DNA of 64,000 nucleotides from Blasia pusilla (taxonomy: Eukaryota): NCBI GenBank assembly GCA_050084515.1, contig CM114271.1:38378001-38442000 (forward strand), written 5' to 3'. Positions 5,786-64,000 of the stretch are shown here, piece after piece; positions within the stretch are counted from its first letter, which is position 1, and every line of letters begins with the position of its first letter. The notes under the pieces were generated by a model, which was not told the DNA's origin, did not search any database, and worked only from the letters and a program-made list of their open reading frames with translations. Position numbers and translations under genes: made by a program.

Positions 5786-5819
<34 letters not shown>

Positions 5820-40199: not shown

Positions 40200-43100
40200 T
40201 AAGTTGATCTCTATTCTTTACACGCAATAGCATTACATAGACCATCCCATATGCAAATACAAATTTGATTACTAGGAAATATCTCTATATCACTATTGAA
40301 GCCTTGGCTTTTATGAGGAGTCATTGCACAACCTAGAGAAAGTGGAATTGCCTTCTTGTAGAATTTTATGTCAGAAGAATACTTGAGAATAGCAAGATTC
40401 GTTCGAGTAATTAGAATTAGTTGACATGAGGATAAGATTCTTACTGAAATGGAATAAATGTAGATATCTCTTATATGAGATCCATTTACAGTACCTCTAG
40501 AGCCGTTTGCAGCATGACTCTTTAAGTCAATGTTAGAGGTCAACCTTACTTGGCATCCAATTGCAATGTAAGGTAATTCATGGAAATTATTATCTTCTAG
40601 CCAAGACTTGAATTATGGTGTTGATGGAGTGGCATTGGAGAATCTATTAATATATTTATGTCTATTATAGAAGCATCCCCAAATAATCTTCTAAGATATA
40701 TAATTTTAAATAAATAAACATCTGATTTGTGGGAGCGTTGTCGTGAAGTAAAATGGTTAACTATGTATATTTCACTATTATTAGTATTAGAGAGAATTTT
40801 ATAATTATTAAGTAAATAAGCTTAGGAAAATAAAATCTCATGTTTAAACCTCTTAATGATGTCTTATTTGTACGGGCCTAGAGATAATAAATAAGATATT
40901 TAAAATATAAAAGTAAAATAGTAGATTGGTGTATTAATGAAAATAAAACTAAAGTAGTCTTGGTTTGTGAAGAAGTTAAAACAAGTATAGTTTGAGTAGT
41001 TAGGAGGATATGAAGTGGGTTTATGAGGATATTTTAGGAGAAGATAAAAAAAATCTACGTGTGTCAAAATGGGATTGGCTAAGCCATACGGCACAAGACA
41101 AGATTAACTTTATTTTGTACTTTTGTGGATCTTTTGTGAGGATATAAGGAGGAGAGACTTGGAAGGGTTCGTCACCTTGAACTTCATTTCTTGAGTTTCT
41201 CTTGCGACTCTTGAGTGGATGGCATTGGGCTTGCTTGCTTTTCCAATGAGAGTGGATTACCCGTCTTTGGAGAGTGACTTGGCCATCGAATATTCTTCAA
41301 GAGTTTTAAGAGTTTGACTTATGTGGAGATGATTATTTGGAGAGATTTGTTATCTTGGAAGATTTTCCTAAATCATTATATGAATAGCAGATGGATTTGG
41401 ACTTGTTACTTCTTCAATGAGAGTGGATTACCCCTCTTGGAAGAGCAACTCCACCATAACCAATTCTTGAGGACTTAGAGATTATCGAATGTAGGCTAAA
41501 TTGGGAAAGTTTATCTTCCATGAAATGCAGGGAATATATGTAACAATTTATCCGTCATCTAAATTTGTGTAGGAGAAGAGAAGAATAGATGATGTCTATC
41601 AATCATGGATACCGATAGAGCACGTCTCGTATCCGATTTCCCTTTTCTTAACCCATACTACGTAAAGATCCTCTTTGTAGATAGGCATTGGTTTACTCGT
41701 TATCTAGTCTATCACTTTGGAGAGGCATTCATGAACAACATTATACAATCACCAACTCTGATGATATATACTTCCTATTGTCATGTTCGGAAGGACTTAA
41801 GATTGTTCTTTGTATGTCCTTATTTAGTGATCTGTGGACTTAAATAGGCCTGCTCAAGTATGGTTCAATACTAGTTGTGTCATTCTTCTCGTGTACAAAC
41901 GTACACGAGAAAAATTACAAAGACTTCATGGTTAGGAATTTTGAGATTAGATGTTATGAAGAAGTGATCGCCTCGACACTATCATTCGTGTTTTCTGTCG
42001 TGAGAGAATGGAGACTATATGTACTAATTATGTATTGAATAAGATAAATTATTAGAGAATTCACCTTGCATAAATAACTATCGTATCTAGAAGACCCGAC
42101 CTTACTCAAAGAAAAGTTCTCAACACAACAACGTATTATTATAGTATCTTCATTTATGAAATCTATGGCTTTATCCTCAATCACCAAAAACTCATGGAGA
42201 CAAGATCTGATTGAAGTTTTAGTTGGCAACGTTGAACTTATAGAGTTAACAAAGTGCAAAAATTGAACGTGTGATAAGTATCTCATTGGAGTCCATAATT
42301 CATAAGTTGTAGCACAATTTAGAAGTGGAAAGGATGAAATGTAGCAAGTATGAATAAATTGGGAAGATTTATGATTGCTCACAGAAGGTAGCTGATATAT
42401 GTCACTAAATAATTTTAGTAATTTGCTCAAGAATATGATGGCTCCATAAAAAATTGAAGATAGAGTAAGTCACATTGCCATAATTTGTAGTAAGCGTGGA
42501 GTTAGCATTGGAATTCATCTACAATTGGAATTCATCTACAATAATAACTGAGGATGTACGTAAAATTATGATAATTCTCTGATGCTATATGTAATTGTGG
42601 AATCTCACCGTGTATCAAGATAGAAAAAGCTAAGTGTATAATAACATTATCGGGATGCAACCTTGTTATTGCAAAACATGTAGTAGTTGTCAACAAGAAT
42701 GGCATATTCTTGGACTTCTAATAATCACACATAAAATTAATAAAGAATGTTTTTCTATAGCTAGAAGCACATATTAGTAAAACTAGATAAAATGATACAG
42801 TCTTCAATTTCTCACGTAAGGACAATTGATCAGTTTTTAGAATTGATGGATCGGCATAATTGTCAATTTCCAAAGCTCTAGAATTGAAAGTATCTGATGA
42901 AATCGCTAAAATATTGTGAAGATTCTTTTCCAAGTAAGCTGCTAGTATGTCACCTACTTTTGCAATAATCTCTACAGTGTGCACTCTATTCCACACATTC
43001 TTCTTAGAATAAACAGTTAGAAGTCTATTAATTTCATTGATATTTATAATTATAGATTGGTGTAGGCATTTATGAAGATTCAAAGATTCATGACAATGAG

Positions 43101-47240: not shown

Positions 47241-47773
47241 CTATATTTATGTAAGAGAAAAGAAACACTAGTAGAAAAAGGGTCATTTTAAACCCATAGC
47301 ATCCTGACTCGTATTACTTAGAGTTATTTTAATTACTCTTACTTACTCCGAAACCGGCATTGTGACTTGAGAATTATTCACATGGTAGGGGAGTCACAAT
47401 TTGATACTTATTTAACAACATGAAAACATCTAGGAAGCCACTTTAACTTGTATATCAATGTTTAAAACCCAGCCATGTAATCAACAAAATGAACATTTTA
47501 TTTCTCCTCTCTATCATCCAAAGAATGATTTGGATCATCTAACCTACAACTTCAGTATTATGAAGAAAATGACTAAAATTGTTAAAAGATAGAGAAAAAA
47601 GTCATAGATAGGAAGGTAAGGGAAATAGGATTTAGGCCCTAAATCCTCTTCAGGTTCAAAAACCCTAACATCAAGAGTTTGTGTCTGCATTTTCCCCCTC
47701 CCCCGCGCCCCAACTCTCTATCCCTCTTCCAACTTGTGTGTCGAGCTTCCCGACACGGGTCTGTGGGGTAAGC

Positions 47774-47971
<198 letters not shown>

Positions 47972-48176
47972 GTTTTGGCTGACGAAGTGTAGAATAGTCG
48001 ACCACTAATAAAACTGCTATCTTGTGCGGGAATTCTCTACATCCGCAACTTAAGTTGTGCTCCTCTGATTCGGAATGCGTTGCAAGTTCTTGCTGCTCGG
48101 ATTGCCTGGACACGCAAGAGAATTTTTTCCGAGTGCATGTGAATACACCAAGTAGCAGAGTGCGGGTGCAGTCTAA

Positions 48177-51100
48177 TATTGGATTCTCAACATGCACTCC
48201 TCTGAGCACCATTGATTTGATCGGCCCCCTTGTATGAGGAGAAGCCTAGATCGATGGTTCCGACTTAGACGTCGAAGGAGTCATAGTAATATGACGTAGG
48301 TGGTTTACGAAGTAGCGTTACTAGGTTTATCTAACCCTATATTGCATCAGGGTGCGGGGCACCCTGAGGCAATATAGGGCAAATTTTTTCTATTAATACA
48401 AACGAAGAAAAATAGGTAAAAACCCTAGTTTTCCCGAGTAGTCAAATAGTCGGGAGCCGCAGCGGTAGCGCATTCTCGTATGTCGAGTTATCTCCCAGTT
48501 CAGGTTCCATCGAAGCTCTTCTGTGAGCGCACGGACGGACTAGGCCACTTTGTATCTCTAAGTTTTGTAAAGATTTCAGTGATTTCGTCACTTTCTGTTT
48601 TCTCACATGGTATCAGAGCAGTAGGTTTTCCAGTATTTTGTATCTGGCGATCTAGTGTGTTTGCACAAAATCTTGAGAGATGGCTACATCTTCGTCAGTT
48701 CGTGGTCGCCCTCCTCCGGTGGGTGAAGGGAAGTTAGATGGGTCTAACTATACGTTGTGGAAGTTCAAAATGAGAACTGTTCTCGAATCATTTGAGATCC
48801 GGGAAACGGCCATAGGGGTCGATTCAAATCCACAAGCTAGTGTGAGTTCTGCATGTTCATCTTCATGTGGGGACATCGATCCTGTTGTATTATTGGCATG
48901 GAGACGCAGAAATGCTGATGCTCTATATGCGATTGTCACGAATGTAACTGATTATGTCATGACTCTCATTCAACATACAACCACTGCTGCTGAGGCGTGG
49001 AACATTTTGAAGAATCAGTATGAAACAAGGAATGAGACTCGGATTCAGAATCTGGAGAATCAGCTTACGTCCGAGAAATTTTTAGAAGGAGAAAGCGCGG
49101 AGCAATTTTTGACAAGGATCAAGAATCTTCAAGATCAGATGGCGTCCGTGGGAATTTCAAAGTCTAGCGAAGATTTGGCACGTCGGTGCATAAGGATTTT
49201 GCCTCCAAGGTATGAGTTTGGTCATCAGATCTGAATACTCAAGTAAGACCCACGCCGCTTACTTTTGAACAATTTAGTGCAATGTTGGTAGAAGAGGAAA
49301 TGCGCTTCAAAGCGAGAGAGGAAAGTGACGTAGCATTTACTGCCAACGTACAGAGAGGTAGAAATCACGATTACAGTTCAAATGTCAAGAAGAAATTTCC
49401 AAGAAAAACCTTCAAATGCTTTTATTGTGGTAAGCTTGGTCATCTTATCAAAGATTGTATGAAGAGGAGTCAGGATGAGAAGAACGGTTGTTTAAGACCT
49501 AAGAAGGAGTCTGGAAATTCTGTAGAACTGGGAGAACATGGAGTAGATTCTTGGGTAGCAATAGAAGAGTTTTGCACACAGGCAGAACATTCCACTAAGA
49601 CAAAGAGTGAAGATGCATGGGTGCTCAATAGTGGAGCATCTAGGCATATGACCAATCATAAGGATTGGTATAGCTCCTTACAGCCTCTACATGAGCCCAT
49701 CGTTGTTATTGTTGGGAATAATGCAAAGTGTCATGTAGAAGGGAAAGGCACAATTTCTTTAGTCTCACAAAAAGGAGATGAAAAGAAGTTAACTGATGTA
49801 ATGTACGTACCAGAGTTGAAGCGAAATTTGATTTCAAAGTGGCGATTATGTGATCGTGACCTAGAAGTTCGTTTCAAGAAAATCGAGTAGTCATTGAGGA
49901 TGCCAATGGGAAAGTAGTGGGTGAAGGTATACGACGTGGAAATATCTACGAGTTGTATGCTTTCACGACAAGTGTAGGTACAGATCTTAGTAGCAGTAAG
50001 TTGTGGCATGAAAAATTTGGTCACCTAAGCTTTCCCTTACTAAGTCAGATGCAGAAATCTGGCATGGTTGCTGATTTACCAACAATTTCTGGAGTGTCGG
50101 ATACTTGTGAAGCTTGTATGATGGGCAAGCAACACCGACAACCATTTCCACAAGAGTCCAGCAATAGGGCAAAGGCTCCTCTAGAGTTGATACATGCTGA
50201 CCTCTGTGGTAAAATGAGAACAGTGGCATTAGGTGGTTCTTCCTACTTCTTTTCAGTTGTCGACGATTATAGTAGGAAGATGTTGGTGTATTTCCTTCGT
50301 GATAAGGCAAGTGCTTTTGGAAAATTTAAAGTATGGCACAAGCTGGTTGAGAATGAGACGAGAAAGAAGGTACAAAAGCTTCGCACCGATCGAGGAGGAG
50401 AATTCTTATCAACAGAATTCAACAAATATTTGGGAGAGCATGGAATCAAGCAACAGTTAACCACGGCACATACACCATAACAAAATGGAGTTGTTGAGCG
50501 TTGAAACCGTCATGATGGTGGAGATGGCAAGATGTATGATGAAAGCAAAGGTTTGTGAAGGATTTTGGGTCAAGTCATTATCTTGCCGTATACATTCTAA
50601 ATAGAAGTGCTACCAAGTCAATTGCAAGGCATGACTCCTCATCAATCATACTCAGGTAAGGTACCATCAGTCCAACATTTCAGGACTTTTGGTAGTGAGT
50701 GTTTTGTACATATTCCTGAAGCATCGAGGACCAAGTTGGAGTCCAAGAGCAAGAAGTGCATCTTTATGGGATATAGTGATGAGTCTAAAGCTTATCGCCT
50801 TTGGTGTCCTGAGAAAAAGAAGATGCTTGTGAGTCGTGACGTGGTGTTCCAGGAACAGCCTCGTCAAGTGGCGGATATCAGTGGTCCGTCCACATTATCA
50901 TCAAACGAAGAGATAACCCACCAGAGCACACCACAGATGTTTACACGAGATCATGAAGAAGAAGATTTTGGTGATGATTACAAAGAGCAACCTGCTCTTC
51001 CACTACGGTCGTCATACCCTAAGTGGATAAAGCTGCTCTTGGATGGTAAGGATCCACCAAAGAATCGATGAAGTTGTTACACATCCAAGGAGATCCAAGA

Positions 51101-53156
51101 GACTAGAGGAGCGAGAATAGAGCTTCCGCACATCTCGTCAACATGGCACGATGATGAGAGGTCTTGAAGATGGAAGAGCCATCATGCTTGGATGAGGCCC
51201 TGGCTCATCCTCAATGGAGAGAGGCCATGCAGACGGAGATGGACGCTATTCAGAGAAATGAAACTTGGACTTTGGTTGGAAAGCCAGAGGACAGGAAGAT
51301 AATACGCACCAAGTGGGTGTACAAGACCAAGTACAAGTCGGACGGTACATTGGATAAATTCAAAGCAAAGTTGGTCGCACAAGGATGCTCACAAATCGAA
51401 GGCTTTGACTACTATGCGACTTTTGCTCCCACTGCAAGGATGACAACCATTTGAATTGTTCTAGCGGTTGCAGGAACAAGACGTTGGCATGTATACCAAT
51501 ACGATATGAAGTCTGCTTTTCTGAATGGGAGTCTCAAGGAGGAGGTATATGTTTCTCAACCACCAGGTTTTGAGACACCCGGATTAGAAGAGAAAGTTTG
51601 TTTACTTCATCGAGCATTGTATGGGTTGAAGCAAGCCCCAAGGGTATGGTATCAACGAATAGATACATTCTTTCGAGAGAAGGGTCTCATGAAGAGTCCT
51701 TGAAGCTTAATTTGTATGTGTTTTTGAAGATGGGATGTATATGTTGATAGTCTTGTATGTGGATGATCGATCATCACAAGAGACCCTGAGAAGAAAATAG
51801 AGGAAATGAAGGGAGTGTTGGAATCTGAGTTTGAAATGTCAGATTTAGGTCTTCTGCACTACTTTATAGGACTGGAAATTTGGCAACAGTCAGATTCTAT
51901 TTTTCTCTCTCAACAGAAGTATGCTAGAGAAATCTTGAAGGCATTCGGGATGACCGAGTGTAAGGCAGTGGTCTTGCCAATGGAGGTAGAGTTGAAACTC
52001 TTGATGGAGGATGTTTCACCATTGGTAGATGAAAAGATGTACAGAAAGCTTGTAGGCAGTTTGATATTTTTATGTAACAGTAGACCAAACATTAGCTTCG
52101 CTGTGGGAGTATTGAGTAGGTTCTCAACTAAGCCTCGTGAGAACCATTGGAAGGCAGGGATGTGTGTGTTGAAGTACATCAAAGGCACTATCGAGTACGA
52201 CATCACCTATGGAGCAGGGACGGAAATGACAGGTTTTTGTGACTCAGATTGGGCAGGAGATTTAGATTCTCGAAGATCAGTTTCGGGTTATTGCTTCTTG
52301 GTAGGATCAGGTGTGGTGTCATGGGTCAGCAAGAAGCAACCTACAGTGGCTCTTTCTTCTACCGAGGCAGAGTACAAGGCGGCTTGTTATGCTTCTTGTG
52401 AAGCAGTATGGTTGAGATGGATACTAGAGGACATAGGAGAAGCACCAGAAAGTGCTACTGTTATGTGGTGTGACAATCAGAGTTGCATTGCCATAGCAGA
52501 TAATCCTGTGTTTCATGCTCGTACGAAGGACATAGAGATCCAGTACCATTTTGTTCGTGAATTGATCGAGAGAGAGGTTTTGAAGTTAGTCTATTGTCCA
52601 ACAGAGGATAACCGTGCAGACATCTTCACGAAAGCCTTGAGCGGAGATCAGCTTTACCGACATCTGAAGGGTCTTGGCATAGGTCCAAGACAGTAGTCCA
52701 CATGAGAATGGATATTGAGGGGGGGTATTGGATTCTCAACATCCACTCCTCTGAGCACCATTGATTTGATCGGCCCCCTTGTATGAGGAGAAGCCTAGAT
52801 CGATGGTTCCGACTTAGACGTCGAAGGAGTCATAGTAATATAACGTAGGTGGTTTACAAAGTAGCGTTACTAGGTTTATCTAATCCTATATTGCATCAGG
52901 GTGCGGGGCACCCTGAGGCAATATAGGGCAAATTTTTTCTATTAATACAAACGAAGAAAAATAGGTAAAAACCCTAGTTTTCCCGAGTAGTCAAATAGTC
53001 GGGAGCCGCAGTGGTAGCGCATTCTCATATGTCGAGTTATCTCCCAGTTCAGGTTCCATCGAAGCTCTTCTGTGAGTGCACGGACGGACTAGGCCACTTT
53101 GTATCTCTAAGTTTTATAAAGATTTCAGTGATTTCGTCACTTTCTGTTTTCTCACA
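48177..53156 (+). mobile_element. Full-length Ty1/copia LTR retrotransposon, disabled gag-pol, non-canonical TA...CA LTRs
   Basis: 431-bp LTRs 48177-48607 and 52726-53156 differing at 8 sites; TSD tctaa (48172-48176, 53157-53161); PBS tggtatcagagc at 48608 (tRNA-iMet type); G-rich PPT ending 52725. Confidence 0.97.
48680..52696 (+). pseudogene. Copia gag-pol polyprotein with frameshifts and stops
   Basis: Domain order gag (LDGSNYTLWK; CFYCGKLGHLIKDC), protease (WVLNSGASRHM), GAG-pre-integrase (LWHEKFGH), integrase (LIHADLCG, LRTDRGGEF), RT (KWVYKTK, LYGLKQAPR), RNaseH (DSDWAGD, SSTEAEY, ADIFTKAL). Confidence 0.95.
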
Positions 53157-53873
53157 TCTAACCTCTTTTTCCATGTTTTGTAGCTTTTCCTTTGCGGTAT
53201 TATTGCTGATTTCTGTGATCGCATACGAGGTAGAGAGAAGAGATTAGCTCGTCTAGAGAGGGAGTAAAGACCTAGTATTCTCCCTCATCTTTGGGGACGG
53301 GGTATGCACAACATATACACATGAAATTAATTGTTCACATACGAGATAAGGTGCAAGTAAGCAAGAGTACAACAACTAAGTTAGTGTGCAGATGAATCAA
53401 TTAGGGACTAGGATAATGCAAGAATATGTGGATTCGGTTGCTTTGACCAGGTCTTGCTTTAACACGCAAAAAATTACAGCGGATTTGTATCTCCGTTCAT
53501 CCTTTTGCCCAGAAACACGCTTCCTTTCATGACTCAAAACTCCTCACTACCCCGTCTTACCGTCTCCCATCTACCATCTCTCGGATGGCTTTATCTTCGT
53601 TAGCTTGCCACATGTATGTTTCTGTTGCGCTTTGCGCCTTGTAATCAATTTTGTCTTTCTACCTGATCACCATCGTAGCGATATTCATGTCCCCATGCTT
53701 ATGCTGGCTAGTGTATGAGTTTTTGGTGCACCTCTGAGTGCGCCTAGGTAATAAGGGTAGAGAATTCAGTTTTGTAGATCAGTTATGATCTTTTCCGTCT
53801 GGAGTTTTTCTTTTGAATTATTTCTGAGAGTCAGATATCTCCGCCTCTCTACTTCTGGTCTAATATTCATCGA

Positions 53874-54710
53874 TTGAATATTAGACCTATAGTAGAAACA
53901 ACATCGAATGCAGGTAGAGTTGCAGTCGCCTTCAATTTTATCCCGGTGGAAATACTTTTTCTTGAGGATATTGAGCGATGTCTCTTGTCATCTGAGGAGA
54001 TAGTAGCTCTAGCTACTGAACGAGATGAAACACTATCATTGGCCTTGAGAGGAGTTGCGTCATTTTCACTTTTGGACCAATTCCTACTGCTGATCAGTTT
54101 AGATTATATTCGGGCAGAACCTCCCACTTTATCATTCAAAGAGCTCAAGGATTGCCGCGGGCCGCAAAATCCTGTCACGAATGTGTTTGTTTCATCCCAC
54201 GCTTTCGCAAAGACTAAAGGAAGATTGCCTTGGTTTCCCTAACTCACCAAAGCCAAGATTCAAGAGGCTCCGATCGCTTCGCATTTTGGAAGCTTTCATC
54301 ACTTTCAGACTAGGAATTGGCTATTCCGCTTAGAAGATCGCTTCGTCTATGTGCAATTTATAGACTTTGTTATGTGGAGGGAGGACAGAGCAGCAAGATT
54401 AGCATGGCTTATGCTTGGGGTCATCTGAAAAGTCACTCTTCGTATTTGTCATGATGCTAGGGGAATCCTCCTTGGAGAGGATCATCCAACTGTTAGGAAG
54501 GCACGAGCCTTGGTTGAATATGCGCGTTCTGTTGGTGGTCAGACAGTGGATGTTATTCTTGAATATTGTAATATTTGGGAATGAGTCACCCCGGGGAACT
54601 TAGTATGCATTTGCTCAAGTCACAGAACCATTTCAAGAGAAGTTTGCATATATTGTCTAAACATATGTCGTGATGCTGTTGTATGGAAACGGGTCAGATC
54701 AATAGCCTAA
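53874..54710 (+). pseudogene. CACTA cargo ORF A, unknown protein, 279 codons in one frame with three internal stops
   Basis: Frame continues through TAA 54240, TGA 54426 and TGA 54582, each one C>T change from CAA/CGA, to TAA 54708-54710. C-terminal CxC-x10-CxxC-x3-C cluster. True start unknown. Confidence 0.55.
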
Positions 54711-55444
54711 CTTTTGGCCCTTTATATGGCTTGCGGAGAACAGTTGTAAATGTAAACAGAAAAAGAAAATAAGAGGAGATGTTGTTTCTATTGATTGATG
54801 GAGTCAGGCTTAAGGTTATTCATTGATGGAGTCAGGCATATTATGTGGGGCCATGGTTTAATCTTGCACTTGAAGCAATGACCATTGTCCAAATGAGTTC
54901 TTCGCTTCTTTTAGATTAGAATTCATATGGAAGTATTTGGACATTTCAAAGTATTATCAGAAAGTAGGGTAATTAGGAACACGGAATCTCCATGACAGGT
55001 CCATAGATCTTCCATGGTGCGTGTACACTCTTGACCTTGGATGAGAAAAGTGGGTTCAAGTGATATTTTTAATTTCTTCACCATTCATCATAGTATATGC
55101 TCATCATGGTTCATCATCAAAGGTAACTCTTGAAGATGAGAAATCAATGCCAAAATCCAAAAGTACAAGACCATATTACATGGATGTATGCAACCAAACA
55201 ATCAATAAGAAGTCCTTGTTTGTGTAGAAATAAGTACTTCTTATTCTACTTAACTTTAACTTCTTGTATGTACAAGTACCACTAGATTGAGAGTTGAGAA
55301 TTTGAGCATCCTGAAGGGTAGGTAACCTCCACATCCACTGATGGAATTTTTAAGCTTTTGTTAGCCCTGTCTGAATCAATGCATGTGCTATGCATTGAAG
55401 TTTTGCACCTAATTGTCATCCTCACTTGTTATTAGCAAGGTCGA

Positions 55445-56038
55445 TTGGTGGCCGTGCACCACATTCCAACACTCCCTTCAAACATTATGGAGGACATTGT
55501 CTACTCTAGGGCTATCGTTCATGATCATGACGGAGGAGTTTTTTGTGTCTCTGAAGTCAGTGGCCCTCGTACATGTTACTTTTCCCTGAGATGGTTGATG
55601 TTGGGTGAGTATGATGGGAGGTTGGAGTCTATAAGGTGTTACATTCAGTTGGGTATAGTTGACAATATGGTACTTCCAATTTTCCACGATGTAGGATCAA
55701 GGATATTCTCACACGATGGCGGCCACTTCCACTCCGAGCCTCATGTCTGCGACGGTAGAGAGTTGTCCATGATCGATGCCATTTGGAGGATCTGCATGGA
55801 GTTCAACACCTCTTTCTCCATAGAGAATTTTTTCCCTCAATTGAGTGTCTTGTGTCCTACCATCATTGATCCTTGCTCACAGACAACATGCCTTACGAGG
55901 TGCACAGTGTGTGATGGCTCGATTCTACATGATCACACCTTCTGCCCTTGCTGTAGTGGTGATTGTGCATGGCCACCACAAGATAGGGCCCTGACATTTC
56001 CTGATAAGCCTAGTGGTTACACCTTCAAGGGAGAGTGA
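55445..56038 (+). CDS. CACTA cargo ORF B, unknown 197-aa protein with C-terminal CxxC-x10-CxxC zinc-ribbon-like motif
   Basis: Uninterrupted 594-nt frame of non-repetitive, protein-like composition; CTVC..CPCC. Begins at GTG, first ATG at codon 15, may be a spliced exon. Confidence 0.5.
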   Translation: MVAVHHIPTLPSNIMEDIVYSRAIVHDHDGGVFCVSEVSGPRTCYFSLRWLMLGEYDGRLESIRCYIQLGIVDNMVLPIFHDVGSRIFSHDGGHFHSEPHVCDGRELSMIDAIWRICMEFNTSFSIENFFPQLSVLCPTIIDPCSQTTCLTRCTVCDGSILHDHTFCPCCSGDCAWPPQDRALTFPDKPSGYTFKGE

Positions 56039-56378
56039 TCATGTGGACTTTCTTCCTCCTAAATTTTCCCCTATCAATTTTGCTATCAGTCTAGGGTGAA
56101 GTCTTAGGCCACATACACTCATAAATTTTTCACCAAGATTATGAACTCAAAACCATATATATATATGAATATTCGGATAGGGTTGGGAATGACATTAAGT
56201 TTCAGTATACTGCATAAGGCTCCAGGTCACACATTGTCAAACGATAAAAATGATGGATGAAAATTGTGTGTACCCGGATGTCCCTTTTTGATATTGTAGA
56301 CTTACATACTCTATATGGATATTGTTGAAGTCTATTATTATTTTCTTTGTAGACATCTGTGACCAATAACATACAAGG

Positions 56379-57035
56379 ATGGCGCGGCCAAAGACCCAAG
56401 CCAAGAAAACCCTTGAGGTGAGCAATTTTGCGCCATATAGTGCACTCCAAGTCCTACAGAAGGTAACCCAAATTTGTGCAATCTGTTATGATGGGGAGAA
56501 CCTGGTTGTTTCCAATGGGCCTTGTGCCAGGCACTCCCACGCAATTGCAGAATCAGCAGGGGCTATAGAGAACTCTTGTCCAGGGATCAACCTCCCACCT
56601 AATCACGAGAGGAGCTAGTTGTTCCAGGATTGTGTGAAGCAAAAGGCCAAGTGTACCAAGTGTGGTCTAGAGAGAAGTTTTACAGAGAGTGAGGATTCTT
56701 GGATTCGTGTGAGAAAATGCCCAAATACATTTTGTGTGAGGTTATTTTGCTTTACTTGTTTGCATGCGGGAGTGGAGTCCTAACCCATGCTTTATTGCCT
56801 TGGATGCCATTTACACGATGAGGAATTGTGGGAGGAAATGGTGTATTGTGCTAGGTGCCCCATTGCATGGCATTGGGCTTGCTTGAAGAAGGCTATGAGC
56901 AAGGGTTATGCATGTGATTGGATCATATATGACCAGGCTGCATGTGGTGGGGATAGGTCGTGGTTCTATTGCCACCACCACAAAGTTGATCCCACACTTT
57001 AGACTCCTTTGAGAGATCTAATTTTATGGATTTGA
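56379..57035 (+). pseudogene. CACTA cargo ORF C, EDM2/NSD-type tandem PHD-finger protein with in-frame stops
   Basis: One frame from ATG 56379: ICAICYDGENLVVSNGPCARHSHAIAESAGAIENSC..*LFQDC..KCTKC..VRKCPNTFCVRLFCFTC..*PMLYCLGC..MVYCARCPIAWHWACL..FYCHHHKVDPTL*TPLRD. Stops at 56616, 56781, 57000. Confidence 0.8.
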
Positions 57036-57560
57036 TTTTCAGGTTAGTGGATGAGAGATCCGTGTCTAAACAAAATCTAGTTGCGTTTTGGTGGAGATTG
57101 CATGGTAGCCACTTGTGATACAAAGAGGGTTGAGGCTCTATACATCCTTACTAGGCAGGTGGTATGACTTCATATAGAGACTTGCCATTCCCTACCCTCT
57201 CATTTTCAAAGTTGGAATCTTTTGAAATTTGGAATGAACGGCCATAATTGCAAAACTATATAATATCTAGTTTATTATCGAGATTGTGCATTAGACAGTT
57301 TTTGGAAGAGTGAAATGTAATTTTTGTGGTTTCAAAAAACACTCTTGTGAATAGTGTCTTGATTAGGATGTGCATGTCGACAGCTGGAATACTGTTTTCT
57401 TTTGTCATCCACTCCCATATCCACTTATGCAATTATAGCTTTAAAGCTTGGTAGCCCATTATGGAAAACCATTGGTTACCGCAATTTTGTTACCACCCTA
57501 ATAGTGTGAAAATACATTTTGTTTATGGTTGATAGTGAGGTGTGGTATCTTTAGACATTC

Positions 57561-60260
57561 ATGGATGTCCCACCTAGCCCTCCCTATTGGGGGCATAATG
57601 CTCATCATAATGCTCCCATAGGCAATCCTCCAGATGGCTTCCGACCTAGAAGAGGCAGGTTGCCATTACAACATCCAGAACGGATCAGAGCTCGTGATTC
57701 CAAACTTTGGGATCGAGAGCAAGTCCTAGTGGCGCACTTTAGAAGTGCAAGGATGCGATGTCCTGTGTAGCTTGTAATGGGTTTCACACACTAGGCTTGC
57801 CGAATATTTTCACTCATCTTCAGAAACATGGAAGGCATCTAGAAAAAAGAGTTTTTGGACTTGAGTGATGAAGAGTAGAGGTCCGCATTGGGCATTGCCA
57901 ATGCGGCTAGACATGCAAAATTTTTGGGAGAAGAAATGGGAAACCTTGTTGCCCAAGATGCGGGTGAGGTAAGTACCTAGGTGGAGGCGTCTGATGAAAA
58001 TAACCGTGATGATGGGGTTGATGTTGAAGGTGACACTCTTGATCATGGGATTGATGTGCAACGAATGGTCTTTGACATCTTCCAAGATCTTGATGCATTA
58101 TACAATGATGTTGAGAGCATGGAAGACATCATTGATGCAGCCCAAGAGGCTAGAGAGGATGCATATGAGATTGGGCAAGAAGAGGACGAGCAAGGATGGA
58201 TGTTTGGGTTGGCTGAAACGGTTGCTCATGCATGCAAACCTTTGTTCCCTTGCTCTAAGTGTACAAAGCTGGCTTTTTTACTCATGTTGATGAACATCTG
58301 TGGTAATCATGGTGTCCCAACTTTTTTTGTTTCAAGGTTACCGGCATTCTCGAAGACAAATATCTTTCCTATCGAGAATACGGCTCCTGGCAATAAGTAC
58401 GAGGTAACTAAATTATTGTCAAGTATGGGATTGAATTATAGTTCCATTCATGCTTGCCATGATGGCCACATGCTATTCAGAGGAGAGCATGCAAATCGAT
58501 CAAGTTGCCCAGTATGTTGACAACAAAGGTATAGAAATGTGGGCAAGTGAATGCAGCCTATAAAAGTACTTTGGCATTTTGAAATCATTCCTAGATTGAA
58601 ACGAATGTGTAGGAGTCCAACGATTTCAAAGTTGATGACTTGGACAACCAAGATCAAGAGCCCTAATGGCCTGCAGCGGCATATTGGAGATTTGGAACAT
58701 TGGAGATTCATCGACAGAGATGGCCTAAGTTTGCAAGTGAGTCAATGAACGTGAGAGTTGGACTCTCGACTGACGGGGTCAATCCATTTGGAGACAAGAA
58801 CAATGTATATTCTTGCTGGCGTGTAACCCTTTTGAATTATAACCTCCCTCCGGGGTTGACTACTAAGAAGATTTTTGTCTTATTGGTTTTTGCTTATCGC
58901 GGGCCGACAATATGCTCTTTCGCAAAACATAGACATTTGGATAGTTCCTATTGTGGATGAGTTGAAGCACTTGTGGTACGAAGGCATTTGGATTCATCAT
59001 GTGCTGCAACCGTTTGGGAGACCAAACCCATTCAGACTACAAGCCCAATTGGTATTGACTTTGGGAGATTATCCCGCCCATGGCATGATTTTAGGTCAGG
59101 CAACAAAGGGGTATTTGGCTTCTACTGCATGTGGCCCCAATTTCACTCGTGAGCATTCCAGACCTTTGACGAGCATGCAATACCTTGGACATCGGAATTT
59201 CCTCCTACTAGATCACCCTTACAGACATAGGGCATCGCAAGTAGTTAAATTCAACAATGCCCGAGAGCTTCGTGATCCACCTCAACGAGTTAGTAACAAG
59301 CAAATTTTGGATTAGAGACACTAGAAGACCATGTATGACGTAGAAAGAGGTACCGGTGAGGCTTTAGATAATGGTCTTGAGGGCCAAGATACAGAAGCTC
59401 CAAATGCTCAACGGGATCGGGGCTAGAGATATGGTGTGAAACAACAGAGCATCCTTGATGTGGAGTTGGACTAATGGCAGGTAATCTATGTCACCCATCC
59501 GCTCGTAAGCATAGTCTATTATTCTGAACACGAGATGCTTTCAAGAAGTAAGGCTAGTGATTTATCATCCATGTGTACTCATGGTTTTCATATGTGGTGT
59601 AACAGGAGTTCGACCACATCAAACACAATCTAGATGTAGTGCATATTGAGAAAAATGTATGCGAAAACCTATTGAGGTTCCTTTCTGGGTAGAATGACAT
59701 AGCAATATTGCGATTGGATCTCCAAGAGAGGAGAATACGATCTCAATTGTGGTTGAAGGATGATGACAATAGACCCAATGTGGTATTGAAATACCAAGCA
59801 CCTTATATTTGCTTAGACACAGAGTGGAAAACGTTTCTTTCAAGGCTTCAATCTTTGAGAGTTCCGACCGGCTATCAAGGGGCCTTCAAAAAGCATGTAA
59901 AAAACAAGAAAATTGGTAATATGAAGATACATGATTATCATGTGCTTATGCAATAGATTCTACATGTATGCCTTAGGGGATTGATGCAGAAGCCGAGACG
60001 TAATGCAATCGTGCGATTATGCAAGGTGTTTGGTCGTATATGTGTGAAGGTCTTTGATCCAGCAAGCTTGGACAAGCTTAAAGATGATGTTGCACAATGA
60101 TAGTGCAATTTGGAGATCCATTTTCCTCCCGCCTTCTTTGATGTGATGACTCATCTCATTATCCATGTTGTGGAAGAGCTTGGACAGTATTGGCCTATTT
60201 ATACGAGGTGGATATTCCCACTGGAGCATTTTATGAAAGTCTTGAAAGACCACGTCTAGA
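57561..60260 (+). pseudogene. CACTA TnpD-like transposase (Transposase_21 and DUF4218-type regions), disrupted
   Basis: MGLNYSSIHACHDGHMLFRGEHANRSSCPVC; KVLWHFEIIPRLKRM; NVRVGLSTDGVNPFG..YNLPP; GDYPAHG; YLGHRNFL..DHPYR; GT-AG intron 59481-59605; HNLDVVHIEKNVCE; KIHDYHVLMQ; FFDVMTHLIIH. Confidence 0.93.
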
Positions 60261-60304
60261 AGGTATCCAAAACCATTTGTAAGTATGAATTCAAAAAGTG
60301 AAAA

Positions 60305-60655
60305 TCTATCTAATCCAATTTATCAAGGGTGCGTGCTCTATTTGTGAGATTCTTTCCCTATATTAGTAAATTTTTTTATAGGTTTTTGTTTAACAAAATG
60401 TTGCTTTCTCTTTCTTATGATGTAGATTAGACAATGGAGAGAAAGATTATGAAGCGCGATTAAAATCTGGGTAATCCATGGGTTGTTCTTTACCATCTTA
60501 TGATATGTATATCCTTTACTTGTCATATTAATCTAGAGATCACCAACATTATTTCTGCTATGAACTACGTTTATAAATATGTATACAAAAGTTTGGATCC
60601 GCTATCATTTAAGCTGTCAAAAGAGGTTGATAGCAGCATGACATTAGAAGACTAG
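60305..60655 (+). mobile_element. Mini-Helitron (~350 bp) retaining Rep motif 3
   Basis: A|TCTATCTAAT 5' end at 60305; GNPWVVLYH..CHINLEITNIISAMNYVYKYVYKSLD at ~60470-60600; hairpin gctgtcaa/ttgatagc (60613-60634) then CTAG|T at 60652-60655. Confidence 0.65.
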
Positions 60656-60999
60656 TGAAAGGTCCTCGCGGATCCCTCTCCTCGTGACATATCTTTTTTC
60701 CAATGGGTAGCGGACTCCCCATGGTTGTGTTATGCCCATCTGAGTTCATTAGACTTAGATAACCACATCCAAACCTCCCTCCCCATCCCAAACATGGATG
60801 TGGTTACATGAGGCTATACACTCTCAGAACCACATGGACTGTAAGAGCGGAAACATGCGTGTGGCCATTTAAACGACATTAATCAACAAAGAGGCAATAT
60901 ACCAACACTACTACATTTGCAATGTTACAAACCGCTCCATTCACATAATTATGAGACACTTTCTCTCATTTTAGCAAAGATCATGAGTTTATACTTCTT

Positions 61000-63900
61000 T
61001 CCATACTTAGTAGTTATAATTCAATCGAAAGATATGGTACTCCTCGCTACTATACCAAGTATGCCTCTGCGAGGAAGGGATATTCAACCTACTACTACCT
61101 AGTTTATGCTCCAAAATCCCATCAAAATCATCGATGTTTATCCAACACTTGAAATGCTAAAAGGTGATGGAATGCAACAATACATCTCGAATAGGTTGCA
61201 CAATGAGTTCTATCAATAAGGCTGGTGGAAGGGAGTAACCTATGGCAAGATTCATTCCATCCCAATTGCAGTGGTAGGGCTTACAAGAGCCCCCTCAGGA
61301 GACCCTTTCTAACCTTCTCAAACTCATGTACCTAATTAAGCTACGCGTATCCAAGAGAAATGCTAAAATTCTTCTAGTCCATGGGCTTTGAAAGTAGTGA
61401 GGAAATCACTAGAGGTGGGGATAGGGACAAAGAGGCCTACCCACACTTCCAGTGTACTCTTGAGCTTTGTTCAAGAATACTGCCTTGTTTTGCTTCTTAC
61501 AGTTCGCGCTATGTAATGCTGCTACGCTGTTGAGCCATATTTTTGCAATACATAGTATCACATATGTACTTTTTTACAAGCCAATCAGATTAGCCATAAT
61601 ATGTTACAAGAAAAAATGCACAGACCTTTCCTAAGCACAAAATGCAGTCTGGAAAATTCTTGTTTTGTAAGGGAAATTAGTCTCAGGTTACCCTCATCTT
61701 CATTCCTAACTTCTTCCTATCCGATGTCTACTTCCACCTTCTTACTGGTGTTCCAAGGTGCTCCGGGTGTGGACCTCAACTAATGGGTTGCAATGAAAAA
61801 GGTCTCCTTTTTCAAGCAGACATTTTCAGAGACAAAAATAACCATATAAGGCATCAAAGAATAATTACCTTCACATTCAAACATATACTGTACATGTAGA
61901 ACATCTACCGCATTGCAAAGACAAACTTTGAAACATGTTGCCTACTACAAGTGTTGCAAGGTCGATTCCATCCGCTAAGTAGATCTGGGACCACATGCCT
62001 ATTCTTCAATAATGGAAAACGAACACCAAGTTCTATTCACCTCATGGACCAGCCCCAACTCCAAAACTTTTCGGACTTGCTACAATCTGAATTTGGAATC
62101 ATCTCTTGCCTATTGGATGCTATCACATACATACAAATATCTCGGTATATATGTGTAACCTTCATATTCATCTTTCATTCATAAATATGAACATGACTAG
62201 TCAAGTATTAGTAACTAAGTGTTATGGCTACACTTGGTCTCTAAATTCTTGAAGGTATCTACCCTACTTTTCTACACATAGATGCCTATGGTTGTCAACT
62301 TTAAACCATGTTGCCTACACATTGAATATCATAAGAAAGATTTTTGTCAACCATCAGGTTGGTGTATGGTGGCAGTAGATTAGTATGCATCTTCAAGTAC
62401 TTTTCCACTTGAGAAAGAGATCCGAAAAATACTTGCCTATGGCTAAATTTAGAAGGGCAGTGGAACTGAGTCCTTCATCTAGATGTAGAAGAGAAGCATT
62501 TCCCAATAGTGCCTTGTCACAAACATCGGTCTGGTCGATTACATATATGCTTTTAGCGGTCGCCTGATGACCCAAGGGATAGGACCCTTGCTATCAGAGG
62601 TGGACATTCCTCTTTAATGGGATTTAGTATACAATCTTGGGCACCGTGTTCTCTTGCGCTGCCTCCGTAAACCCTAAGATTATTCAATCTTCCAAGTTCA
62701 TTTGGATTGAGGATGTGAGTGCTTGCAGACTATATCTGCTAACAAGAAGTCATTATACATAGTAGCACTTGCTATGTATAATGAGGCTTATCCATGTCTC
62801 AACCGATCTTTGGTTCCCTAATAGGAAACTTGTAACGTTCTCCAATTTTTTCACACTTATTTCTAGGGACTTTGAGGAATTTGGGCTGGATAGACATGCT
62901 GCAGGTTTCCTTTGGGAAAATCTACCTTTAACCTACCTTTCCTACTAGCTCAAGAACACTGAATGGCGATAGGAAGATAGAAAGAGCAATCAGGTCCGGA
63001 TCCGGTCTAACGCTACACAATAAAGACATAACCCAATTGTCTAAGGAAGCAGAGATGCAACATCAAGAAATAATTGAAAGGATGCATCCGAGAGCAGACA
63101 TAACGAAATCAGAAATCTTGCCAGCAAAAGTTCCTAAACATATTTCCTACATTTAGCAATGAACTTTAGCAGACTATGCTTGGAGCCCATCCCTTCTTGA
63201 ATGCACACGCAGTATTCACCCCCACCTCCGAGCCAAGCTGCCCCAAAGCTTTGAAAGTAAGACAACCTACAAAGATAATAGGAGTGAAACTCGTCCCGAA
63301 ACTTGAATACAAAGAACACATCAGAAAAGAACCACGGGCCCAATCCCTGAACGGAGGAGGGATTTGATCGTCGCATCTAAGGTGGCCTGCGCAAACGTGT
63401 ACCACAGGTGCTAGAAGAACGCAAAAGCCTTTGCCCAAGAAGGCTAGACGTGACAAGGACATGCAAGCTAAGGAGATCTTGAGACTGTTTGCAAAGAGGT
63501 AAATGCAAGATCTACAAGACGATCGATATATAAGATCAGACAAGATCTACGAATGCCACAAACCGACCCTACACGCGACTAGCAAGGAAACCTTCACGGT
63601 ATAATTACACCCCGGCTAGCTAGGCATGGACATTTGAAGCTTGACTATATAAGTACCTTACATGTAAAATTCTTAAAAAACCTAAGCTCTTTGACTCAAC
63701 TTTTCCCATTGAGAGCTATAGAGAGTGAAACAAATCGATGACATCCTAAACGTGAGCCACATGATGAGCAAAGAAGTAGACAAAAGAGACAGAATTCAGG
63801 TTGACCAAAACGTGACCACACTGAACATGCAAACTAGAATGAAGGAATGTCGAAGTCTATTACCCGTTGCTCTCTCTACTTAGAAGTTTGACAGACTTCG

Positions 63901-64000
63901 TAGAGGCTCCACTCAAAGTTCGCCCTACTTCCTAAATGCTTCAAACTCCAAATCATGGCAGCAACTAAAGTTCTCCATGCTTCCTAAAGGCTCCACTCTC
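61000..64000 (-). mobile_element. Decayed retroelement-like sequence, family not resolved
   Basis: Broken minus-strand frames with gag/pol-like composition; no diagnostic catalytic motif recognised. Confidence 0.3.

What the first reader, a model, noticed from the sequence alone, without database searches (positions are those of the whole stretch)
56379..57035. CACTA transposon carrying an EDM2-type PHD chromatin-reader gene: candidate TE-encoded anti-silencing or targeting factor
Seen: two ORF-track fragments (56379 and 56787) are one reading frame broken by point stops. It starts at an ATG with a basic N-terminus (MARPKTQAKK) and ends ~530 bp upstream of, and co-oriented with, a CACTA transposase. 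It encodes tandem Cys/His fingers. Knowledge: this architecture is shared by NSD-family PHDs and plant EDM2. The long spacer between His and Cys in finger 1 (HAIAESAGAIENSC) and the closing YCxxHxxDxxLxTPxRD motif match EDM2 as I remember it. EDM2 associates with H3K9me2 heterochromatin and, with ASI1/AIPP1, allows full-length transcription through TE-containing introns. TE-encoded anti-silencing proteins are known for MuDR-type VANDAL elements (VANC). Inference: a stand-alone, intronless reader-only module, too diverged to be a recent passive capture, may be a retained family gene that protects the element's transcripts or guides insertion. This copy is dead and several ligands have decayed.
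Basis: partly seen in the sequence, partly recalled or inferred. Interest (0 to 1): 0.88.

Follow-up and report, generated by a model that had tools for sequence, protein, structure and literature searches.

The report
Dead EDM2-type PHD gene beside CACTA transposase
A broken copy of a small, previously unnamed plant gene family that consists only of the histone-reading zinc-finger module of the host factor EDM2 sits next to a transposase inside a repeated block, so a jumping gene may carry its own chromatin reader.

Summary
56379-57035 (+) is one frame of 218 codons with three internal stops, and it lies upstream of, and co-oriented with, a frameshifted CACTA-type transposase (Transposase_21 + DUF4218).

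The homology claim also holds. The best named relatives are EDM2 proteins, the family profile hits NSD2 PHD1-3, and the closing YCxxH...TPxRDH motif is shared with EDM2.

New here: the ORF is a decayed member of a conserved stand-alone family.
- I saw 28 database sequences, 93-278 aa, all from unnamed assemblies; full-length members are about 213-278 aa.
- The family shares a start (MARPKxKAKK) and a stop (after ISWL).
- It forms one 100/100 clade on a long stem, next to liverwort PHD proteins.

In a DNA run of the same organism, the block of about 54.1-60.3 kb (ORF, spacer, transposase) is covered by many divergent contigs, while the flanks are not. The ORF is therefore part of a repeat in this genome.

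Not shown:
- No TIRs or TSD were found, and this copy is 3'-truncated.
- No contig bridges the ORF and the transposase.
- Linkage to a transposase in other organisms could not be tested.
- No function was tested. Anti-silencing or targeting remains inference.

Verdict: partly supported; a new variant of a known kind (transposons that carry chromatin readers).

The parts
56379..57035 (+). Pseudogene of a stand-alone triple-PHD (EDM2/NSD-type) protein: 218 codons plus terminal TGA
   Evidence: Searches give one frame. One search gives relatives down to E 1.7e-42. In one search the best is P0053, 50% identity over 226 columns, end to end.
56475..56633 (+). Finger 1 (aa 33-85), with the long His-Cys spacer. 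Ligands C45S and C82F are lost, and W80 has become TAG (56616-56618).
   Evidence: Relatives match Pfam PHD-1st_NSD here (P0002 27.7 bits, cut-off 27).
56652..56792 (+). Finger 2 (aa 92-138). C135 has become TAA (56781-56783), and H138L.
   Evidence: It aligns with the PHD_NSD finger of EDM2-like proteins, but with Cys where they have His (RF[FY]C against RFYH).
56796..56981 (+). Finger 3 (aa 140-201). All 8 conserved Cys/His columns from C140 to H201 except H186 are kept.
   Evidence: PHDvar_NSD E 0.007, 16.8 bits, below cut-off 27.
56964..57032 (+). Closing motif FYCHHHKVDPTL*TPLRDLILWI, shared with EDM2. It contains the third stop (57000-57002, TAG).
   Evidence: alignment with Neltuma and Selaginella EDM2 and with liverwort proteins.
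57036..57554 (.). Non-coding spacer between the PHD ORF and the first open frame ahead of the transposase. It is itself repeated in the genome.
   Evidence: X1 summed depth is 20.5-38.2, and 2-3 divergent contigs cover several places (57046, 57141, 57374).
57555..60256 (+). Frameshifted, 3'-truncated CACTA-type transposase remnant
   Evidence: Pfam Transposase_21 at 58667-58957 and 58860-59312; DUF4218 at 60104-60256, profile positions 23-73 of 114. Contigs of another organism (X4) match only within 57771-60339. The part from 57555 to about 57980 is unverified.
54100..60340 (.). Block that is repeated in the organism's DNA run. It contains the ORF, the spacer and the transposase. Its ends are known only to the width of a depth bin (367 bases).
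   Evidence: X1 summed word depth is 15-77 in 16 of the 17 bins from 54101 to 60339 (one bin is 4.4). It is 0.3-1.3 in 53367-54100 and 0.6-4.0 in 60340-64000.

Best explanation
The ORF is a dead copy of a gene for a small nuclear protein of about 220 aa. The protein is nothing but the composite three-finger PHD module of EDM2-like/NSD-like chromatin proteins, preceded by a short basic tail (MARPKxKAKK). The gene belongs to an old, diversified, stand-alone family.

In this genome the gene travels as part of a repeat unit of at least 6 kb, about 0.5-1.6 kb upstream of a co-oriented CACTA (Transposase_21) transposase gene. The most likely reading is that it is an accessory gene of that transposon family.

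Inferred mechanism: in intact copies the protein enters the nucleus and binds histone H3 tails through its PHD module, as EDM2 and the NSD/PZP modules do. The element would gain either by being tethered to a particular chromatin state or by competing with host EDM2-type readers at its own heterochromatin.

What is shown and what is inferred:
- Shown: homology, family, fold, pseudogene state, and repetition of the block.
- Inferred: carriage inside the element's termini.
- Inferred by analogy only: nuclear import, histone binding and benefit to the element.

My odds for the separate steps:
- Pseudogene of a conserved stand-alone EDM2/NSD-type family: 0.95.
- Part of the CACTA-containing repeat in this genome: 0.75.
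- A retained accessory gene of the transposon family rather than a one-off capture: 0.5.
- Any one specific function: at most 0.3.
For: Homology:
- 36 hits at E<=1e-3 among 1.84 billion representatives.
- I looked up the names of 30 proteins from my searches. The clusters of 4 of these carry EDM2 or EDM2-like names: Neltuma alba, Selaginella moellendorffii, Miscanthus floridulus, and Triticum/Aegilops.
- Most of the other long proteins looked up are land-plant PHD proteins, one is from the streptophyte alga Mesotaenium, and all 17 long EDM2-like proteins scanned show Pfam PHD_NSD + PHDvar_NSD (P0011, a tandemly duplicated module, also does, while P0022 does not).
- The family profile against PDB gives NSD2 residues 658-799 at E 4.1e-12 and NSD3 at 3.8e-9.
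- The closing motif is shared with EDM2.

Family:
- A profile search found 17 short proteins (110-278 aa) among 794 candidates: 13 from Logan, 3 from JGI, 1 from ENA, none with an informative name.
- Of the 28 database family sequences I examined, 11 keep all 27 conserved Cys/His columns, 3 keep 26, 2 keep 25, 5 are cut short without changes, and 7 are frameshifted or decayed.
- The start and the stop are shared.

Tree (36 rows):
- The 17 stand-alone rows form one clade (100/100) on a stem of 2.5 changes per column.
- That clade sits inside a 96/99 clade with 4 liverwort proteins of 619-768 aa.
- The window copy groups with P0053, P0056, P0002 and P0057 (95/95).

Fold:
- AlphaFold2 model of the nearest intact relative, P0053: pLDDT 87.1, pTM 0.82.
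- Foldseek: JADE1 PZP at E 1.5e-4; NSD1/2/3 PHD5-C5HCH at probability 1.00, TM (target) 0.56-0.64.

Repeat:
- Run X1 is the same organism: it gives contigs with 0 differences over 370 and 300 bases of the flank.
- 759 X1 contigs were laid on the 11 kb: 85 at >=99% identity, 144 at 95-99%, 290 at 90-95% and 240 below 90%.
- Summed depth is 36-44 over the ORF, 20-38 over the spacer and 27-77 over the transposase, against 0.6-4 in the 3' flank.
- At four places inside the ORF, 3-5 contigs all differ from the window.

A second decayed copy exists elsewhere. L001 is 90% identical to P0059. It has a 14-residue deletion, two Cys losses, and a TAG at the same codon as the window's third stop.
Against: - No terminal inverted repeats or 3-bp target duplication enclose the ORF and the transposase. 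I compared 74 CACTA sites with 73 TAGTG sites; the best pair matches 20 of 30 bases and has no duplication.
- No subterminal repeat arrays were found.
- The X1 contigs are short. The listed ones are at most 623 bases, and only 8 of the 759 X1 pieces laid are listed. I therefore saw no single contig that bridges the ORF and the transposase. Two adjacent repeats remain possible.
- The tool states that summed contig depth is not a copy number.
- Linkage in other organisms is untested. The only fetched locus (L001, 1095 bp) has 638 bp downstream of the ORF, with no similarity to the window's spacer or transposase. That is too short to decide.
- None of the 36 hits that I scanned with Pfam (20 proteins) carries a transposase domain.
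- Short reader-only EDM2-like proteins annotated as ordinary host genes exist in grasses (clusters of P0020 and P0036). A stand-alone PHD module therefore need not be transposon-borne.
- The window is dense with transposons (a copia-like element ends 3.4 kb upstream), so adjacency alone is weak evidence.
Confidence: 0.5

Rival explanations
1. One-off capture. The stand-alone PHD family is an ordinary, possibly multi-copy, host gene family of non-seed plants, comparable to the short EDM2-like genes of grasses. One CACTA family in this genome transduplicated a copy, Pack-CACTA style. That copy was then amplified passively and decayed, without serving the element.
For: - Host-annotated short EDM2-like proteins exist in Triticum, Aegilops and Miscanthus.
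- Gene capture by Pack-CACTA elements is described (passages of PMC13317346).
- The window copy is dead.
- No linkage has been shown outside this genome.
Against: - The captured piece would be a complete gene, from the family's start codon to its natural stop. Captures are usually fragments (this last point is my knowledge, not a call).
- 7 of the 28 database family sequences are themselves frameshifted or decayed, and L001 is a further decayed near-copy of P0059. That pattern fits a repeat better than a host gene.
- None of the 28 family sequences comes from an annotated proteome.
Confidence: 0.3
2. Chance adjacency. The PHD pseudogene belongs to a different repeat, or to a dispersed host pseudogene family, that merely abuts a truncated CACTA remnant in this transposon-rich region.
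For: - No TIRs were found and I saw no bridging contig.
- The region upstream of the ORF (54.1-56.4 kb) has no recognisable transposon protein.
- Depth over the ORF (36-44) is about half of that over the transposase core (54-77).
Against: - Cover by divergent contigs is continuous from the ORF through the 520-bp spacer into the transposase, with no bin falling to the flank level.
- The two genes share orientation and lie close together.
Confidence: 0.15
3. The PHD frame is not a separate gene. It is the 5' exon of the transposase gene, so that the transposase carries an N-terminal PHD reader, as in PHD-transposase fusions reported in other eukaryotes.
For: - The two share orientation and lie close together.
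- PHD readers fused to transposon protein domains are common (passages of 10.1101/2021.11.30.470311).
Against: - In one search, 7 of the 14 intact full-length relatives stop directly after the shared ...ISW[LI]; the other 7 run on for 1-10 residues.
- No long protein among the hits combines these fingers with a transposase domain.
Confidence: 0.03

Closest known systems
EDM2 (ENHANCED DOWNY MILDEW 2) and EDM2-like proteins of land plants
   Same: The whole composite PHD module is shared, from the first CxxC to the closing YCxxH...TPxRDH[IL]xF/W. EDM2 is a chromatin-binding protein that binds H3K9me2 and brings ASI1/IBM2 and EDM3/AIPP1 to intronic heterochromatin (passages of PMC7529245).
   Different: - The ORF has no other EDM2 domain. 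Angiosperm EDM2 hits carry DNMT1-RFD at the N-terminus and are 1054-1272 aa. The family here is about 220 aa and ends right after the module.
- Finger 2 has Cys where EDM2-like proteins have His.
- The loop between fingers 2 and 3 is 10-28 residues shorter.
- It has a basic N-terminal tail of its own.
- It forms a separate clade on a long stem.
NSD1/2/3 PHD fingers (Pfam PHD-1st_NSD, PHD_NSD, PHDvar_NSD) and PZP modules (JADE1, AF10, PHF14)
   Same: - The family profile matches NSD2 658-799 at E 4.1e-12.
- The predicted fold matches the NSD PHD5-C5HCH and JADE1 PZP structures, several of them solved with histone H3 peptides.
   Different: - There is no SET or PWWP domain.
- Identity is only 18-24% in the structural matches.
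- Pfam scores of the stand-alone proteins lie at or below the curated cut-offs.
Short EDM2-like proteins of grasses (Triticum, Aegilops, Miscanthus; 227-339 aa)
   Same: They are reader-only proteins made of the same module.
   Different: They are annotated as host genes. They form their own clade (100/99), away from the family here, so they are an independent shortening.
Transposons that carry chromatin readers or anti-silencing proteins
   Same: The idea is the same: a mobile element encodes a protein that reads or alters chromatin. What I saw of each example:
- Chromodomain integrases (MAGGY) and PHD or chromo fusions: passages of 10.1101/2021.11.30.470311.
- A PHD in the Gypsy-7a_cRei polyprotein: passage of PMC9940879.
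- An MBD in arthropod copia elements: start of the abstract of PMC6673714.
- VANC of VANDAL elements: starts of the abstracts of PMC5735166 and PMC10398659.
   Different:
- No activity has been shown.

Membership tests
EDM2 / EDM2-like proteins | Composite atypical PHD module with the closing YCxxH...TPxRDH motif | tested here: met
   Named EDM2 hits are P0035 (E 3.5e-4, query 30-215 against 237-435) and P0027 (E 1.0e-4).
EDM2 / EDM2-like proteins | Further domains: N6-adenine methyltransferase-like ELP domain, PGR domain, acidic and proline-rich regions (listed in PMC7529245); DNMT1-RFD in angiosperm members | tested here: not met
   The ORF and its intact relatives end within about 10 residues of the PHD module. 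Pfam finds nothing else in them. The protein is therefore not an EDM2 orthologue.
NSD-type PHD fingers (Pfam PF23011, PF22908, PF23004) | Score at or above the curated Pfam cut-offs | tested here: inconclusive
   - Window ORF: only PF23004, 16.8 bits against a cut-off of 27.
- P0002: PF23011 27.7 bits (cut-off 27) and PF23004 23.0 bits.
- PF22908 is not reported for the three stand-alone proteins scanned.
- The profile hit to NSD2 at E 4.1e-12 shows homology.
CACTA / EnSpm transposon | Transposase of the TNP2 type (Transposase_21, with DUF4218) | tested here: met
   It is frameshifted and cut off after DUF4218 profile position 73 of 114.
CACTA / EnSpm transposon | Terminal inverted repeats beginning CACTA, with a 3-bp target site duplication, enclosing the genes | tested here: not met
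   the best pair matches 20 of 30 bases and has no duplication. The copy seems to be cut off near 60.3 kb, so the 3' end may simply be missing.
CACTA / EnSpm transposon | Subterminal arrays of short repeats | tested here: not met
   only one 24-nt pair at 54789-54840.
Transposon-encoded accessory gene (retained by the element family) | Same gene order in independent copies and in related elements of other genomes | not testable with these tools
   - No genome is held for this window.
- The metagenome scans gave only L001, 1095 bp.
- Within the genome there is only indirect support.
Transposon-encoded accessory gene (retained by the element family) | Purifying selection on the protein | tested here: inconclusive
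   Eleven of 28 database sequences keep all 27 Cys/His columns at 30-55% overall identity, across three subclades. This speaks for constraint on the family. No dN/dS could be computed, because the DNA of the relatives was not available.
VANC-like anti-silencing factors | Sequence relationship to VANC, or demonstrated loss of methylation at cognate elements | not tested
   No VANC sequence appeared among the hits. The function needs experiments.

The most novel reading that the evidence does not exclude
A lineage of CACTA DNA transposons in non-seed plants took the heterochromatin-reading PHD module of a host EDM2-like gene. The nearest relatives of that module are liverwort proteins of about 700 aa. 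The transposons have kept it under selection as a separate small gene through the split into at least three subfamilies. The protein would act for the element, either as a decoy that competes with host EDM2-type readers or as a tether that steers insertion or protects the element's transcripts in heterochromatin.
Probability: 0.3. Interest if true: 0.85.

Novelty: new variant of a known kind. Interest (0 to 1): 0.62.

Why it matters
EDM2 is one of the few plant factors known to let genes work in spite of heterochromatic transposons inside them. If a transposon family has carried a stripped-down copy of exactly that reader module for a long time, it would be a natural experiment on how mobile elements use, or jam, the host's chromatin-reading machinery.

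It would also be a DNA-transposon counterpart to chromodomain integrases and VANC.

Whatever the outcome on the transposon link, the work uncovers a conserved family of triple-PHD proteins of about 220 aa. It has no named member in the databases searched. It can be tested directly on histone peptides.

Tried and rejected
- Whole-genome copy count: no genome is held for this window.
The contigs behind the intact relatives (the longest are 5691 and 5472 bp) therefore could not be read.
- The single-sequence word search with the ORF found nothing. The exhaustive search and the profile search did.
- The search for related loci in metagenomes:
  - Alignment A2 was not conserved enough (error).
  - Alignment A3 matched 94 stretches, none confirmed.
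  - P0059 alone gave one locus of 1095 bp. Its downstream 638 bp match nothing in the window beyond chance.
- The transposase N-terminal frame (57981-58517) against longer proteins: none at E<=1e-3 among 802 candidates. The tool calls this weak evidence.
- PDB search with the broken ORF alone gave only chance hits at E 0.6-0.9.
- TIR/TSD search, repeats near the presumed 5' end and a self-comparison of the block with the rest of the window found nothing useful.
- Pfam on 20 further frames between 53.8 and 61.1 kb found nothing apart from DUF4218.
- The 200-aa open frame 55436-56038 is not recognised by Pfam or by the protein atlas.
- Rfam: 0 matches in the window.
- Expression:
  - No RNA holder is listed.
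  - Run X2 is only guessed to be RNA. It has a 673-nt contig matching 56458-56556 at 83% and a 918-nt contig on 59154-60058. I draw no conclusion on expression.
  - X4 and X5 (other organisms) show no cover of the ORF at 80% likeness. This is not evidence of absence.
- Literature:
  - Six searches and passages of five papers gave no report of an EDM2-type PHD gene in a CACTA element.
  - Supplementary Table 6 of 10.1101/2021.11.30.470311 lists 823 chromatin-transposon fusions. It could not be opened and may hold related cases.
- P0022 (580 aa, E 3.5e-5) is a tandem-repeat protein without Cys/His fingers. I treat it as a false hit.

Full report
**What is in the sequence**

Bases 56379-57035 of the + strand read as a single frame of 218 codons. 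It begins ATG (MARPKTQAKK...). It is broken by TAG at 56616-18, TAA at 56781-83 and TAG at 57000-02, and it closes with TGA at 57033-35. Alone against Pfam, the frame gives only a sub-threshold PHDvar_NSD match (E 0.007, 16.8 bits, cut-off 27). Alone against PDB sequences it gives only chance hits.

Downstream on the same strand lie remains of a CACTA-type transposase. Pfam gives Transposase_21 at 58667-58957 (7.9e-19) and 58860-59312 (2.9e-24), in different frames. It gives DUF4218 at 60104-60256 (1.6e-12), covering profile positions 23-73 of 114. The verified distance is therefore between 0.5 and 1.6 kb.

**Relatives**

An exhaustive HMMER search of 1.84 billion representative proteins found 36 hits at E<=1e-3, of which 9 are at <=1e-10 and the best is at 1.7e-42. 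They fall into two kinds.

- The best hits are short proteins of 93-245 aa that match end to end.
- The others are long proteins in which only an internal stretch of about 200 residues matches.

Look-ups of 30 proteins from my searches name the long ones:
- 'protein ENHANCED DOWNY MILDEW 2' of Neltuma alba (E 3.5e-4, query 30-215 against 237-435) and of Selaginella moellendorffii (E 1.0e-4);
- proteins of Marchantia, Riccia, Calypogeia, Diphasiastrum and Sphagnum;
- proteins of several angiosperms;
- one from the streptophyte alga Mesotaenium.

All 17 long EDM2-like proteins scanned show Pfam PHD_NSD + PHDvar_NSD, often with PHD-1st_NSD, and DNMT1-RFD in angiosperm EDM2. P0011, a tandemly duplicated module, also shows them; P0022 does not.

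A profile of the short proteins hits human NSD2 residues 658-799 at E 4.1e-12 and NSD3 at 3.8e-9. An alignment shows that the closing motif YCxxH(5)LxTPxRDH is common to EDM2, the liverwort proteins and the short family.

**A stand-alone family**

A profile search of 5.8 billion clusters added more short members. It found 17 proteins of 110-278 aa among 794 candidates: 13 from Logan assemblies, 3 from JGI metagenomes and 1 from ENA. None has an informative name.

Together and the cluster members, I examined 28 database sequences. They share:
- a basic N-terminus (MARPKxKAKK);
- three fingers;
- the closing motif and a stop just after ...HISWL.

The window's terminal TGA is thus the family's natural stop. 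The nearest relative, P0053, is 50% identical over the full length.

I defined conserved Cys/His columns as those present in at least 12 of 14 intact members. There are 27 such columns:
- 11 of the 28 sequences keep all 27;
- 3 keep 26;
- 2 keep 25;
- 5 are cut short without changes;
- 7 are frameshifted or have lost ligands.

The columns were defined on 14 of these same sequences, so the count is partly circular for those 14.

The window copy keeps 20 and has lost 7: H31Q, C45S, C82F, C135stop, H138L, H186Q and H214L. It has also lost the conserved Trp at the first stop. It is clearly dead.

**Tree**

I built a tree of 36 rows: 17 stand-alone rows, including the window, and the PHD modules of 19 long or host proteins. 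Left out were the fragments, the duplicated module of P0011, the false hit P0022 and redundant cluster members.

- The stand-alone rows form one clade with 100/100 support, on a stem of 2.5 changes per column.
- That clade sits inside a 96/99 clade with four liverwort proteins of 619-768 aa, which carry the module at their C-terminus.
- Canonical EDM2 of angiosperms and lycophytes lies elsewhere.
- Within the family there are three subclades. The window copy belongs to one of them, with P0053, P0056, P0002 and P0057 (95/95).

The long stem invites caution about the exact sister group. Short EDM2-like proteins of grasses, annotated as host genes, form a separate clade (100/99).

**Fold**

AlphaFold2 on P0053 with the family alignment gave mean pLDDT 87.1 and pTM 0.82. 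Only the basic tail is disordered. Foldseek against PDB gave:
- the JADE1 PZP domain, E 1.5e-4;
- the NSD1, NSD2 and NSD3 PHD5-C5HCH tandems, probability 1.00 and TM on the target 0.56-0.64.

Several of these structures were solved with histone H3 peptides. This supports a histone-tail reader. It does not say which mark is read.

**Is it part of the transposon?**

No genome is held for this window. I therefore looked for sequencing runs and laid four of them on 53000-64000 at 80% likeness. Run X1 is the same organism: it has contigs with no differences over 370 and 300 bases of the right flank. It gave 759 laid contigs, of which 85 are at >=99% identity, 144 at 95-99%, 290 at 90-95% and 240 below 90%.

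Summed contig depth by region:

| Region | Summed depth |
|---|---|
| 53367-54100 (left of the block) | 0.3-1.3 |
| 54101-60339 (16 of 17 bins; one bin is 4.4) | 15-77 |
| PHD ORF | 36-44 |
| Spacer | 20-38 |
| Transposase | 27-77 |
| 60340-64000 (right of the block) | 0.6-4.0 |

At four places inside the ORF, 3-5 contigs all differ from the window. Three of these changes alter the residue and one is silent. The spacer is likewise covered by 2-4 divergent contigs at several places.

The ORF, the spacer and the transposase thus belong to DNA that is repeated and diverged in this genome, with no gap between them. The repeat stops where the DUF4218 match breaks off, so this copy is 3'-truncated.

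Three limits apply:
- The tool warns that summed depth is not a copy number.
- The contigs are short, and I saw none that bridges the ORF and the transposase.
- Only 27 of 926 pieces and 40 of 738 differences were listed.

I found no CACTA termini with a target duplication and no subterminal repeats.

**Elsewhere**

The only related DNA I could fetch is L001, a 1095-bp metagenome contig. It encodes a decayed near-copy (90%) of P0059. The copy has a 14-residue deletion, two Cys losses, and a TAG at the very codon where the window has its third stop. Its 638 bp of downstream sequence are too short to reach a transposase at the window's spacing, and they match nothing in the window.

Many sampled members are pseudogenes, and none comes from an annotated proteome. 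Both fit a repeat-borne gene, but neither is proof.

**Mechanism and rivals**

My best reading has an overall confidence of about 0.5.

- The family gene encodes a small nuclear histone-tail reader.
- In this genome, and probably in its relatives, it is an accessory gene of a CACTA family.
- The element would benefit through tethering to a chromatin state, or through competition with host EDM2-type readers at its own heterochromatin.
- Only homology, fold, family structure, decay and repetition are shown. The rest is inference from what EDM2 does (passages of PMC7529245) and from other transposons that carry readers (passages of 10.1101/2021.11.30.470311).

The rivals are:
- a one-off capture of a host gene (0.3);
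- chance adjacency of two repeats (0.15);
- a 5' exon of the transposase (0.03; the shared stop speaks against it).

**Novelty**

Six literature searches and passages of five papers found no description of an EDM2-type PHD gene in a CACTA element, or of this stand-alone family. Transposons with fused PHD, chromo or MBD readers, and the VANC anti-silencing proteins, are known. I therefore class this as a new variant of a known kind.

Noticed in passing
window 48335-52928: A copia-like LTR retrotransposon with long open gag-pol frames (48677-52696). The same 44-nt palindrome lies at both ends (48335-48378 and 52885-52928). The first bin laid, 53000-53366, just 3' of it, has a summed depth of 3449 in run X1. 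I named it copia-like from reading the translation; it was not tested with Pfam.
   Followed up: partly
window 47700-47980: A long (GA)n microsatellite, seen as runs of LS and ER repeats in the frames.
   Followed up: no
window 20103-20531 (-) and 40211-40612 (-): Open frames that read like the C-terminal helicase part of Helitron or PIF1-type proteins. This comes from reading and was not tested.
   Followed up: no
window 5391-7473 (+): Exon-like frames of a WD40-repeat host gene in the GC-richer left part of the window. This comes from reading and was not tested.
   Followed up: no
window 55436-56038 (+): A 200-codon frame without a stop lies inside the repeated block, 340 bp upstream of the PHD ORF. 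It has no Pfam match and is not recognised by the protein atlas. Contigs of X1 and X2 cover it at about 84%. It is either a further element gene or a chance open frame.
   Followed up: partly
L001 425-427 and window 57000-57002: Two decayed copies from different subfamilies carry TAG at the same codon, where two intact relatives (P0057, P0059) have Gln and the others Gly, His, Glu or Lys. A C-to-T change of CAG would explain both. It could be a mutation hot spot in methylated DNA or a coincidence.
   Followed up: partly
proteins P0020, P0036 and their clusters: Grasses (Triticum, Aegilops, Miscanthus) have annotated 'EDM2-like' proteins of 227-339 aa that consist of little more than the PHD module. 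They form their own clade. This is an independent reader-only offshoot of EDM2.
   Followed up: partly
proteins P0010, P0012, P0026, P0030: Liverworts have a second, shorter EDM2-like paralogue (619-768 aa) with the PHD module at the very C-terminus and no Pfam domain before it. It is the nearest named relative of the stand-alone family.
   Followed up: partly
window 55048-55166: An X1 contig of depth 19.3 skips about 119 bases here (joint 55047 to 55167), and another skips 125. The window copy therefore carries an insertion, or other copies a deletion, in the block upstream of the ORF.
   Followed up: no
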